The notes under the pieces were generated by a model. It saw only the letters and a program-made list of their open reading frames with translations, made no database searches and was not told where the DNA came from. A DNA stretch of 64,000 bases. It comes from Octopus vulgaris (lineage: Eukaryota). The translations under genes and the position numbers were made by a program. This document shows, in pieces, positions 9,668 to 14,054 of the stretch. Location of the stretch: the NCBI GenBank assembly GCA_951406725.2, contig OX597820.1, forward strand, positions 48,298,001 through 48,362,000. Direction: 5' to 3'. Each line of letters starts with the position of its first letter. The stretch's first letter is position 1.

Positions 9668-10060
9668 ACGGGAAGGTTTACGAAAATAAACAAAAGACGA
9701 AGGCAGGTGGAGTACAAACAAACAAATGTATTAGTATAGCGCTCAGGAATAGAAATAGAACAAGTCTTTTACGTTTCGAGCCTACGCTCTTCGACAGAAA
9801 GATACACAGAATAGAAACAAGGAGAGAAACAAGGAGAGAAAAAATGCGTGTAGGAGCTAACGATCTATCATGGCGCTCTGACTTCAGGCAGAGGTCAGAC
9901 GTTAGACGCTAGAGGGATAGTAGGGGAGATAAGAGGGTCAAGTGACTTCCAAAACGAAGGTGGCCCCAACACGAAGGTGGCCCCAACACGAAGGTGCGTG
10001 TGTGTATAAAAGAGTATGCATATGCGTGTAAAAGAAGGCTGGTGGTCTGGACGTGTGCAT
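9668..10060 (-). mobile_element. Hammerhead-bearing Penelope-like element end; HHR motif at 9765-9802
   Basis: Minus strand: tcttt-CTGTCGA-A-GAGC-gtag-GCTC-GAAAC-GTA-aaaga. All helices pair, with one core change (A6>T). Ends in (TA)n. Contains a 17-bp tandem acgaaggtggccccaac. Confidence 0.7.
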
Positions 10061-10070
10061 GTATGTATAT

Positions 10071-11255
10071 ATTAAAGGACGTTAAATGATGTTATATGGG
10101 TGGCGTTAAATTACGCTAATTGACGTGACGTTAAAAGACGTTAATTGACGTGATGTTAAATGGCGTTAAACGACGTTAAATGATGTCAAATTAAATGACG
10201 TTCAATGACGTGACGATAAACGACGTTAAGTGATGTTAAATGACATGACGTTGAATGACGTTAAATGATGTAACGTTAAACGACGTTAAATGACATGACT
10301 TTAAATGACGTTAAAGGACGTTATATGATGTGATGTAAAAGGACGTTAAATGACGCTATATGGGTGGCGTTAAATTAAGCTAAATGAGGTGACGTTAAAT
10401 GACGGTAATTGACGTTAATTGACTTCGCGTTATATGAGTTCAAATTAAATGACGTTAAATAAAGTGAGGTTAAATGACGTTAAAGGATGTTAAATGACGT
10501 GATGTAAAATGGCGTTAAATGACATTATATGAGTGACGTTATATTACGCTGAATGACGTGAGGTTAAATGACGGTAATTGACGTAGCGTTAAATGGCGTT
10601 GAATGACGTTAAATGATATTGTGAATAAGGTTAAATGACGTGACGGTAAACGATGTTAAATAACGTTAAATGGCATGACGTTAAATGACGTTAAATGACG
10701 CGATGTAAAATGACGTTAAATGACGTTATATGGGTGACGTTAAATTACGCTAAACGACGTGTCGTTAAATGATGTCATAGTAGATAACATTAAATGACGT
10801 GACGTGACGGTAAACGACGTTAAATGATGTTAAATGACGTTAAATGACATAACGTTAAATGATGTTAAATGACGTGATATAAAATGACGTTAAATGACAT
10901 TATATGGGTGATATTAAATTACGCTAAATGACGAGACGTTAAATGATGTTAATTGTCTTCGCGTTAAATGACGTTGAGGTCGTATTAAATGACGTTAAAT
11001 GACGTGACGTTAAATGACATTAAAGGACGTTAAATGACGTGATGTAAAATGACGTTATATGACGTTATGTGAGTGACCTTAACTTACGCTAAATGACGTG
11101 ACTTTAAATGACGTTAATTGACGAGACGTTAAATGGTGTTGAATGACGTTAAATGATGTCATAGTAAATAACGTTAAATGAAGTGACGGTAAACGACGTT
11201 AAATTACGTTAAATGACGTTAAATGACAACGTTAAATGAAGTGATGTAAAACGTT
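10071..11255 (+). repeat. Satellite, left arm, (TGACGTTAAA)n with higher-order structure
   Basis: 10-mer with TGACG 5-mer insertions; the marker ttatatgggtg(g/a)cgttaaattacgcta recurs every ~165-270 bp. Confidence 0.95.
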
Positions 11256-11261
11256 CTTTCA

Positions 11262-13340
11262 CATATAACGTCATTTAACGTCCTTTTACATCACGTCATA
11301 TAACGTCGTTCAACGTCATTTAAAGTCATGTCATTTAACGTCTTTTAACGTTGCGTCATTTAACGTCATTCAACGTCATGTCATTTAAATTCATTCATAA
11401 TCACGTCATTTAACGTTATTTAATTTGACATGAATTTAACGTCGTTTAACGCCATTAAATGTCACGTCAATTAACGTCTTTAACGTATCGTCAATTAGCG
11501 TAATTTAACGCCACCCATAAAACGTTATTTAACGTCCTTTAACGTCATGTCATTTAACGTCGTTTAACGTTATGTCATTTAACGTCATTCAACGTCATGT
11601 CATTTAACATCATTTAACATCGTTTATCGTCATGTCATTTAACGTCATATAATTTAACATCCTTTAACTTCATTTAACGTCAAATCAATTAACGTCATTT
11701 AACGTCACGTCATTTAGCGTAATTTAACGTTACTCACATAACGTCATTTGACGTCATTTTGCATCACGTCATTTAACGCGAAGACAATTTATATTATTTA
11801 ACATCATTTAACGGCACGTTATTTAGCGCAATTTAACGTCACCCATATAACGTCATTTAACGTCATTTTACATCACGTCATTTAACGTCATTTAACGTCA
11901 TATCAATTAACGTCTCGTTTACCCTCACGACATTTAACGTTATTTACTATGACATCATTTAAAGTCATTCAACGCCATTTAGCGTTACGTCAATTAAATC
12001 ATTTAAGGTCACGTCATTTAGCGTAATTTAACATAACCCATATAACGTCATTTAACCTCATTTTACATCACATCATTTAACGTCATTTAACATCGTTTAC
12101 CGTCACGTCATTTAACATTATTTACTGTGATATCATTTAACGTCATTCAACGCCATTTAACGTTACGTCAATTACCGTCATTTAACGTCACGTCATTTAG
12201 CGTAATTTAACGCCACTCATATAATGTCATTTAACGCCATTTTGCATCTCGTCATTTAACGTCCTTTAACATCTTTTAATGTCACGTCATTTAACGTCAT
12301 TTAATATGAACTCATATAACGCGAAGTCAATTAACGTCAATTAACGTCATTTAACGTCACCTTATTTTGCGTAATTTAATGTCACCCATATAACGTCCTT
12401 TTACATCACATCATATAATGTCCTTTAACGTAATTTAAAGTCATGCCATTTAACGTCGTTTAACCTCGTTTAACGTCACGTCATTTATCGTCATTTAATT
12501 TGACATCATTTAACGTCATTTAACGCCATTTAACGTCATTTAACGTCACGTCAATTAACGTCATTTAACGTCAGGTCATTTAGCGTAATTTAACGTCAAT
12601 CACATAACGTCATTTAACGTCATTTTACATCACGTCACTTAACGTCCTTTAACGTCATTTAACGTCATTTAATACGACCTCATTTAACGTCATTTAACGC
12701 GAAGACAATTAACATCATTTAACGTTACGTCATTTTTGCGTAATTTAACGTCTCCCATATAACATCATCTAACGTCATTTTGCATCCCGTCATTTAACGT
12801 CCTTTAACCCCATTTAACGTTACGTCAATTAACGTCATTTAACGTCACGCCATTTAGCGTAATTTAACGTCACTCACATAACGTCATTTAACGTCATTTA
12901 ACTTCATGTCATTTAACGTCATTTAACGTCGCTGAACGTCACGTAATTTAACTTAATTTACTATGACATCATTTAACGTCATTTAACGCCATTTAACGTC
13001 ATTTAGCGTAATTTAACGTCACCCATATAACGTCATTTAAATTCATTTTACATCACGTCATTTGACGTCCTTTAACGTCATTTAACGTCATTTAACGTCA
13101 CGCCATTTAGCGTAATTTAACGTCCTTTTACATAACGTCATATAACGTCATTTTACATTACGTCATTTAACTTCATGTCATTTAACGTCGCTTAACGTCA
13201 CGTAATTTAACTTCATTTAATATGACATCTTTTAACGTCATTTAACGCCATTTAACGTCACGTCATTTAGCGTAATTTAACGTCACCCATATAACGTCAG
13301 TTAACGTCATTTTACATCACGTCACTTAACGTCATTTAAA
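11262..13340 (-). repeat. Same satellite in inverted orientation, (TTTAACGTCA)n on the + strand
   Basis: Reverse complement of the left arm; 11262-11540 aligns with 10071-10360. Confidence 0.95.
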
Positions 13341-13587
13341 GGAGAAGGGGGGAAGAATTTAGGAGTCCCTTGATTGCCGTATTTTGAGAGGTCAGTGGCA
13401 GCTAGCTGTTGCCGTTCAATTCATGAGAATATTTCTATTGAAAGCTTTGTTTATAGAATTTGCGTAGGTGTTATACTAAAAAGCTTTTTAGTATAACACT
13501 TACGCAAATTCTATAAACAAACCTAGCCGCCACTGACCACTCAAAATACGACAATCAAGGCACTCCCAAATCCCCCCTTCTTCTCCT
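13341..13587. repeat. Fold-back palindrome with no spacer, centred on AAGCTT at ~13481-13486
   Basis: tttgtttatagaatttgcgtaggtgttatactaaaaag|ctttttagtataacacttacgcaaattctataaacaaa, plus outer arms ggagtcccttgattgccgtattttgagaggtcagtggcagctag / ctagccgccactgaccactcaaaatacgacaatcaaggcactcc. Confidence 0.92.
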
Positions 13588-13677
13588 TCTTCTTCTTCTT
13601 CTTCTTCTTCTTCTTCTTCTTCTTCTTCTTCTTCTTCTTCTTCTTCTTCTTCTTCTTCTTCTTCTTCTTCTTCTTCT
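13577..13677. repeat. (CTT)n microsatellite
   Basis: Direct reading. Confidence 0.97.
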
Positions 13678-13835
13678 CTACCAAGAATTCACAACGACCT
13701 CGAACCCACAAGTGTAAACAAGAGAGACAGAGAAAGGCAGAAACAAGAAAAATGCCACTTATATATGAACACTATACAAATATTCTTTTAATAAAACTTT
13801 TCTTTTAATTTTTCTAAATTTAATTATTTAATCGT

Positions 13836-13877
13836 TACAGTTGAAAAGGTCTCAAATGGCTGAAACCGGTACTGAAA
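13836..13877 (+). ncRNA. Degenerate type I hammerhead motif
   Basis: cag-TTGAAAA-GGTC-tcaaat-GGCT-GAAAC-CG-GTA-ctg. Helix I cag/ctg and palindromic helix III ACCGGT are present; the core CTGANGA carries two changes. Confidence 0.55.
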
Positions 13878-13962
13878 TGTTCTTTATAAAATTATTTTAG
13901 CATTTTCTATCTTGACTTGTTTTTTCATATATATATCAACTCGTGTGTTCTTTTTCATCCTT

Positions 13963-14054
<92 letters not shown>

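What the first reader, a model, noticed from the sequence alone, without database searches (positions are those of the whole stretch)
9668..13975. Mirror-image composite: inverted satellite bracketed by outward-facing hammerhead ends
Seen: reading outward from the switch point (~11258), both strands give (ATTTAACGTC)n, then a few hundred bp, then an HHR motif (9765-9802 on minus, 13836-13877 on plus), a pyrimidine-rich tail and (TA)n. The right side also has a spacer-less palindrome. The two HHR ends are not homologous to each other. Inference: the 4.3-kb block could be one Penelope-mediated insertion carrying satellite cargo, or a ribozyme-delimited satellite transcription unit that forms long dsRNA. 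I consider this the best candidate for an undescribed system in the window, but chance juxtaposition is not excluded.
Basis: partly seen in the sequence, partly recalled or inferred. Interest (0 to 1): 0.72.

Follow-up and report, generated by a model that had tools for sequence, protein, structure and literature searches.

The report
Old satellite between unrelated Penelope ends
This mirror-like block is a real but ordinary pile-up: an internally inverted satellite fragment flanked by the cut-off ends of two different, very abundant Penelope-type jumping genes, which likely landed there separately and later, rather than forming one ribozyme-bounded unit.

Summary
The anatomy is real: an inverted 10-bp satellite (10073-13339), hammerhead-like motifs facing outward, a fold-back and TA tracts. 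Both ends are 3' fragments of two unrelated Penelope-like (RT + GIY-YIG) families, with 17,870 and 2,976 exact motif matches in the genome. None of 29 + 29 other copies touches this satellite. The satellite occurs at 16 other loci; 6 switch orientation, none is bracketed. At 112 other satellite ends, Penelope ends point outward 5 times and inward 4 times (2.4 expected each). Outward-facing hammerheads are the normal, published Penelope insertion footprint; a third family shows it directly left of the block. The ends are 1.6-2.9% from their family consensus, while the satellite has no copy closer than about 10-16% non-CpG difference over long alignments, so it looks older. Best reading: sequential insertions into TA microsatellite beside an old inverted satellite (0.68). 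Not excluded (about 0.2): one twin-primed Penelope event captured the satellite. Support: register continuity across the inversion, a TA-free right junction, and one other two-family junction. A ribozyme-delimited unit is not supported. The empty site and RNA were not testable. The scan has noted two-ended Penelope insertions and these satellites elsewhere in this genome.

The parts
8796..9022 (+). likely further PLE-type 3' end with a decayed hammerhead-like motif (about 8955-8990), ending in TA
   Evidence: read from the sequence; copy number not searched
9022..9104 (.). compound (TA)/(TG) microsatellite
9105..9316 (-). PLE family 3, inverted tail-bearing 3' end (left half of an ordinary two-ended insertion)
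9318..9650 (+). PLE family 3, tail-less 3' end with a canonical-core hammerhead motif at 9523-9602
   Evidence: 3050 candidates; GIY-YIG frame in copy L129, E 2.6e-4, below Pfam cut-off
9651..9668 (.). (TA)n tract between the family 3 and family 1 3' ends
9669..10068 (-). PLE family 1, 5'-truncated 3' end; hammerhead-like motif 9765-9802 with family-fixed U at position 6
   Evidence: 2340 candidates; longer copies continue into RT-like and GIY-YIG frames; 11 of 376 differences from consensus
10069..10072 (.). ATAT, belonging to neither family 1 nor the satellite; likely a remnant of the TA target
   Evidence: this context precedes the satellite motif in 1 of 16 occurrences (this one)
10073..11251 (+). 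left arm of satellite A (10-bp unit, about 170-bp higher-order repeat)
11252..11258 (.). inversion junction with about 7 extra letters
11259..13339 (-). right arm of satellite A
13340..13483 (-). inverted internal piece of PLE family 2 (left arm of the palindrome), joined to the satellite with no TA tract
13484..13965 (+). PLE family 2, 5'-truncated 3' end: (CTT)33 at 13577-13677, U3-A8-type hammerhead-like motif 13838-13874, tail of about 29 nt at the end
   Evidence: 3154 candidates; near-full-length copies with long RT/GIY-YIG frames; 4 of 243 differences from consensus
13962..14063 (.). compound (TA)/(TG)/(TA) microsatellite; mostly single-copy DNA follows

Best explanation
The block is an inverted satellite fragment flanked by truncated 3' ends of two unrelated Penelope-like retroelement families, which likely inserted independently, after the satellite, into TA microsatellite at its edges. 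Shown: the identity of the parts, their abundance, and the lack of a genome-wide link between them. Inferred, step 1: an old piece of a dispersed mosaic satellite settled in or beside a (TA)/(TG) microsatellite and had, or acquired, one inversion, as its relatives often do. Inferred, step 2: PLE endonucleases cut the TA tracts. Family 3 made a two-ended insertion on the left; family 1 then inserted, 5'-truncated, into the TA between family 3 and the satellite, leaving ATAT. Inferred, step 3: family 2 primed from the right TA tract, produced a short inverted 5' piece and was joined to the satellite edge. The mirror look is the sum of these events. The motifs are passengers of the PLE terminal repeats, and the block is likely inert.
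For: Both ends are common: 17,870 exact matches of the family-1-type motif and 2,976 of the family-2 motif. 0 of 29 other family-1 copies and 0 of 29 other family-2 copies carry the satellite within 1.5 kb. 16 other satellite-A loci: none bracketed, 6 switch orientation, and only two duplicates of one event have a PLE end on one side. 112 other satellite ends: PLE end within 700 bp outward 5, inward 4, expected 2.4 each (P about 0.1-0.2). Family 1 never has an inverted own partner (0 of 25 evaluable) and has a TA remnant at its 5' junction in 16 of 25, as here. When family 2 is two-ended, the partner is family 2 itself: 15 outward pairs and 0 inward pairs within 5 kb among the first 100 matches, 0.14 expected. 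The ends are 1.65-2.9% from consensus, whereas the satellite's best long alignments to other arrays are 73-81% identical (short ones up to 85%), and a control pair of duplicated arrays gave 90.7%. The subtype marker occurs in only 4 arrays of the assembly. At least three more PLE-type ends lie within 900 bp on the left.
Against: Both PLE 5' ends abut the satellite within 0-4 nt and both face outward, which uniform chance alone would rarely give. Two further independent direct outward abutments exist (C6/C11 duplicate; window 34-bp array), against 0.27 expected (P about 0.03), although those two families entered the library because I had seen them there. The right junction has no TA remnant. 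The left arm starts in the higher-order register where the right arm ends, with about 29 nt overlap, as twin priming predicts. One other 5'-to-5' junction of two different PLE families without TA was found, in 1 of 25 evaluable family-2 copies (L197). The ages of the two ends are not distinguishable (Fisher p 0.43). A young donor array may be missing from the assembly.
Confidence: 0.68

Rival explanations
1. Family 2 captured the satellite in one twin-primed event: the right DNA end primed on family-2 RNA, folded back and jumped to a satellite template, and the left end primed on the same template. The two cDNAs met at 11252-11258. Family 1 arrived later in the left TA.
For: One internal inversion junction whose second breakpoint is the array edge; register continuity; both arms read the same satellite strand from the outside in; TA-free satellite/family-2 junction; family 2 normally makes two-ended insertions and its expected partner end is missing here. 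LINE-1 makes comparable template-switched, two-ended insertions (PMC11702581, section 7 read).
Against: No young donor. An in-place inversion gives the same continuity. Terminal inversions occur in mosaic arrays without PLE ends (C14:46.7 Mb, C19:8.68 Mb). 10 of 25 family-2 5' junctions have neither TA nor an inverted own copy, so a TA-free junction is common. The palindrome arms differ by about 9%, more than a 1.65%-old copy predicts.
Confidence: 0.15
2. The whole 4.3 kb is one insertion: two different PLE ribonucleoproteins primed the two sides of one cut, both jumped to satellite template, and the products were joined.
For: Symmetric polarity; a two-family head-to-head junction without TA at C19:70.826 Mb (L197); LINE-1 insertions built from two transcripts in opposite orientation are described (PMC11702581, section 7).
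Against: ATAT target remnant at the left junction; family 1 is not seen as an inverted partner (0 of 25); the right end carries the primary tail, and family 1 shows only one end type; no young donor; no second bracketed array among 16.
Confidence: 0.07
3. The satellite was inserted later between already adjacent head-to-head family-1 and family-2 ends, removing the outer part of the family-2 inverted arm.
For: Explains direct abutment on both sides and the truncated inverted arm; adjacent two-family ends exist (L197).
Against: Makes the satellite younger than 1.65-2.9%-diverged ends, yet no close donor exists.
Confidence: 0.06
4. A ribozyme-delimited transcription unit producing long satellite dsRNA.
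For: A + strand read-through RNA could pair its two arms at about 84%, and would carry the family-3 motif upstream and the family-2 motif downstream.
Against: The two named motifs are on opposite strands. All three have different palindromic helix-III sequences, and single minimal motifs showed no cleavage in PMC4209133 (parts 1-2 of 4 read). The left core has U at A6. Neither named motif folds better than shuffles (z 0.49 and -0.74). The arrangement is not repeated elsewhere. No RNA data were examined.
Confidence: 0.02
5. Assembly artefact (fold-back chimera or misjoin).
For: No read or contig was shown to bridge the inversion or the right junction.
Against: The arms are only about 84% alike with extra letters at the switch, unlike a read fold-back. 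One contig of another sample crosses the left junction, by fewer than the 31 letters the tool asks for (X7, 9990-10089).
Confidence: 0.02

Closest known systems
EN+ Penelope-like elements with inverted 5'-truncated copies, one-sided 30-40 bp tail and (TA)n preference (bioRxiv 10.1101/2021.04.23.441226, passages read; PMC11167929, passages read)
   Same: RT then GIY-YIG frames upstream of the motif, 5' truncation, inverted partner, one-sided tail of about 29 nt, TA targets
   Different: Here the two outer ends belong to different families and non-PLE satellite lies between them; the family-2 inverted piece lacks its own 3' end
Minimal type-I hammerheads of PLE pseudo-LTRs (Cervera and de la Pena 2014, PMC4209133, parts 1-2 of 4 read)
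   Same: Short helix I, extra base after position 9, palindromic minimal helix III, U3-A8 core variant (right motif); that paper also reports pairs 100-700 bp apart on opposite strands
   Different: The left family has U in place of A6, which I did not see in the parts read; the pair here is 4 kb apart and non-homologous
LINE-1 twin-primed and two-template insertions (PMC11702581, section 7 and passages read)
   Same: Opposite-orientation pieces joined in the middle; template switching
   Different: No poly-A and no discernible target-site duplication here; the capture step is not shown and the satellite looks older than the ends
Animal non-LTR retrozymes / hammerhead satellites (10.64898/2026.07.22.740005, abstract read)
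   Same: Tandem repeat next to hammerhead motifs, PLE link
   Different: The repeat unit here is a 10-bp satellite that holds no hammerhead

Membership tests
EN+ Penelope-like element (the two ends) | Linked, same-strand RT and C-terminal GIY-YIG endonuclease upstream of the terminal repeat in longer copies | tested here: met
   Family 2: GIY-YIG E 1.1e-5, above cut-off (L070); RVT_1 weak, E 0.007 (L077); frames up to 784 aa. Family 1: GIY-YIG E 0.005, below cut-off (L013), no Pfam hit in 3 other frames, RT-like motifs recognised from recall
EN+ Penelope-like element (the two ends) | Hammerhead motif in the terminal repeat | tested here: met
   Conserved in 30 of 30 copies of each family, with non-canonical cores; no Rfam match
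EN+ Penelope-like element (the two ends) | Inverted 5'-truncated partner and one-sided tail | tested here: met
   Family 2: 10 of 12 fetched outward pairs have one tailed and one tail-less end. Family 3 in the window likewise. Family 1 shows neither feature
EN+ Penelope-like element (the two ends) | RT phylogeny placing the families in a PLE clade | not tested
   No tree built
Single PLE insertion unit (whole block) | Both termini from the same element, near-identical arms | tested here: not met
   Ends non-homologous; genuine family-2 units have arms 96-100% alike in 7 of 8 spaced pairs
Single PLE insertion unit (whole block) | Empty site lacking the entire block | tested here: inconclusive
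   Left flank is itself a repeat and the right flank is single-copy in the assembly; contigs of 4 runs did not settle either junction
Retrozyme / hammerhead satellite | Hammerhead inside each tandem unit | tested here: not met
   No motif within the satellite
Active self-cleaving ribozyme | Self-cleavage as monomer or dimer | not testable with these tools
   Folding only
Foldback/TIR DNA transposon | Matching terminal inverted repeats with target-site duplication | tested here: not met
   The outer ends are unrelated PLE ends; the satellite arms are unequal (1.2 and 2.1 kb) and about 84% alike

The most novel reading that the evidence does not exclude
Penelope enzymes copy non-PLE satellite into TA microsatellites by twin priming and template jumping, at times with two different PLE families working from the two sides of one cut. 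This would make PLEs a vehicle that disperses and inverts mosaic satellites, with this block and the C19 two-family junction as footprints.
Probability: 0.2. Interest if true: 0.55.

Novelty: new member of a known kind. Interest (0 to 1): 0.2.

Why it matters
As most likely explained, it matters little: it shows how dense Penelope ends and TA hot spots can fake a designed, ribozyme-bounded unit. If the capture reading held, it would give a mechanism for satellite dispersal and inversion, and a natural test of whether PLE enzymes prime both ends of a cut on different templates, a step of the PLE cycle that the papers read call unresolved.

Tried and rejected
Rfam at gathering score and at E<=10 gave no hammerhead, only sub-threshold hairpin (microRNA-type) matches, which I rejected. 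Contigs of runs X4, X6, X7, X8 laid on the left junction and the right junction: swamped by repeat copies, no listed piece bridges either junction by 31 letters on both sides; inconclusive. Telomere-fusion relic: two large arrays lie near contig ends with fusion-like polarity, but the window's array is a different subtype, no telomere repeat run was found in the stretches scanned, and inversions are common. Rejected. Two-family outward pair at C1:0.41 Mb (L196): parts are separated by TA tracts and other DNA, so not a unit. Subfamily origin of the 39-nt gap in the palindrome: found only in window-derived loci among those held. Dating the two ends apart: not significant. The generic hammerhead descriptor misses decayed motifs (for example near 8955 and 32.1 kb), so a library search was added. 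Lunse et al. (PMC5785218) is not held, so whether U at position 6 is a described variant is open. Paper searches listed no report of satellite capture between two PLE families; I read only the listings for most hits and no supplements.

Full report
Observation. A degenerate 10-bp satellite (satellite A) runs on + from 10073 to about 11251 and on - from about 11259 to 13339, with one switch. Hammerhead-like motifs lie at 9765-9802 (-) and 13838-13874 (+). Rfam matches none of them. The ends are unrelated. The window lies in a 2.8-Gb animal assembly; the label 'octopus-type' comes from earlier scan notes, not from a test of mine.

The ends. The left 400 bp match a repeat with 2340 candidates and the right 286 bp one with 3154. 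Exact motif counts are 17,870 (shared with related families) and 2,976. Longer copies continue upstream, on the same strand as the motif, into RT-like and GIY-YIG frames. Of 10 frames scanned, Pfam gave GIY-YIG in 4 (one above cut-off), weak RVT_1 in 1, and nothing in 5. The odd cores are family traits: U at position 6 in 29 of 30 left copies, UUGAAAA in 30 of 30 right copies. The latter is the U3-A8 variant of PMC4209133 (parts 1-2 of 4 read), which also reports opposite-strand pairs and no cleavage by a single minimal motif.

Outward-facing hammerheads are the normal footprint. Among the first 100 family-2 matches on contig C1, I counted by hand 15 minus-then-plus pairs within 5 kb and no plus-then-minus pair (0.14 expected). 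I fetched 12 of the 15. They are inverted-end insertions in TA tracts; the arms are 96-100% alike in 7 of the 8 with a spacer, and 10 of 12 have the tail of about 29 nt on one side only. This is the architecture described in 10.1101/2021.04.23.441226 and, for priming on both strands and the tail, PMC11167929 (passages read). The DNA left of the block, 9105-9650, is such a two-ended insertion of a third family. Family 1 differs: its ends stop at one point, 0 of 25 evaluable copies have an inverted partner and 16 of 25 have a TA remnant at the 5' junction (4 of 29 not evaluable). The window's copy has ATAT there. The palindrome is an inverted internal piece of family 2 joined to its direct copy; 7 of 25 evaluable family-2 copies have an inverted own piece at the 5' end.

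The satellite. Searches found 16 other satellite-A loci that I fetched; one search scored 19 of 23 candidates and left 55 matches unlisted, so the set is incomplete. Six of the 16 switch orientation (three of these share one junction), and none is bracketed. Many are mosaics with other short-unit satellites. Two loci (C6:22.918 Mb, C11:20.823 Mb) have another PLE end joined to the mosaic, but they share the flank beyond it and so are one duplicated event. None of 29 + 29 other PLE copies has satellite A within 1.5 kb. I added 40 stretches holding the related 34-bp and 9-bp satellites. Ends within 800 bp of a stretch edge were dropped, as were the block's own two ends and one at an assembly gap. 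Of the 112 ends left, 5 have an outward PLE end within 700 bp (4 independent) and 4 an inward one, against 2.4 expected each. TA lies within 40 bp of 19 of 112 ends against 10.9% background (P 0.03), which offers targets.

Age. The ends are 2.9% (family 1), 1.65% (family 2) and 4.35% (family 3) from consensus built from their best hits, a biased sample; the differences are not significant. The satellite has no young relative: long alignments to other arrays are 73-81% identical with about 10-20% non-CpG differences (one 138-bp piece reached 85% with 6%), while a duplicated control pair gave 90.7% and 3.8%. The subtype marker occurs in 4 arrays. A donor could be unassembled.

What speaks for capture. 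Both 5' junctions are direct. The right one has no TA. There is one internal switch, and the left arm begins in the higher-order register in which the right arm ends, with about 29 nt overlap. Twin priming predicts this, but so does an inversion in place, and the register match has a sizeable chance rate in a unit of about 170 bp. Direct outward abutment occurs in 2 further independent cases against 0.27 expected, with post-hoc library bias. At C19:70.826 Mb a family-2 copy is joined 5'-to-5' to a family-1-like end without TA (L197; the first 80 nt of the partner are assigned by eye). LINE-1 makes two-template and template-switched insertions (PMC11702581, section 7 read). Contigs of four public runs did not settle the junctions.

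Verdict. The parts are of known kinds and the arrangement does not recur. Sequential insertion into TA microsatellite beside an older inverted satellite is most likely (0.68). Capture by Penelope enzymes, by one family or two, totals about 0.2 and is the only reading of real interest. A ribozyme-delimited dsRNA unit is unlikely (0.02): the motifs are on opposite strands, have unmatched helix-III palindromes and no better-than-shuffle folding; RNA was not examined. Interest 0.2.

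Noticed in passing
window 31986-34100: A 34-bp satellite (32351-33994) has a PLE-type end with a small fold-back directly on its left, and on its right a sequence like a Helitron 3' hairpin (label recalled). The same neighbouring sequence flanks this satellite at 6 other loci (L160, L162, L165, L172, L186, L187), suggesting Helitron spread.
   Followed up: partly
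L197:72-2040 (G000 C19:70.825-70.827 Mb): Two different PLE families joined 5'-to-5' without a TA tract, both 3' ends facing outward into TA.
   Followed up: partly
window 9765-9802 and L002-L030: A very abundant PLE family keeps U in place of the hammerhead core A6 in nearly all copies; cleavage untested.
   Followed up: partly
window 9523-9602: Canonical-core hammerhead with a long helix II and a 6-nt helix-III palindrome, conserved in 10 copies; folds better than 194 of 200 shuffles.
   Followed up: partly
L179-L180 (G000 C9:114.03-114.04 Mb): A 12-kb block of 34-bp and 22-bp satellites with identical outward-reading flanks on both sides, like a foldback element.
   Followed up: no
L106-L120, L199: Arrays of 13-22 kb of a simpler satellite-A subtype, two near contig ends (C9, C11), share flanks with each other (C9/C11/C28; C15/C28; C27 flank with the start of C9). 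84-bp repeats that look like zinc-finger exons (label recalled) lie nearby.
   Followed up: partly
satellite mosaics in L091-L104, L189-L194: The units resemble transcription-factor sites (CRE-, TEAD-, TCF-like; labels recalled and raised by earlier scan notes); binding untested.
   Followed up: no
window 18782-18853 (+), 21870-21941 (+), 42346-42417 (-): Three near-identical tRNA genes with CAU anticodon, initiator-like (type recalled).
   Followed up: no
window 14417-14509 and 14989-15081: Local 93-bp duplication, 95% identical, on either side of a TA/TATG tract.
   Followed up: no
window 52729-52923: Another PLE-type 3' end, of the family joined to the C6/C11 mosaics.
   Followed up: no
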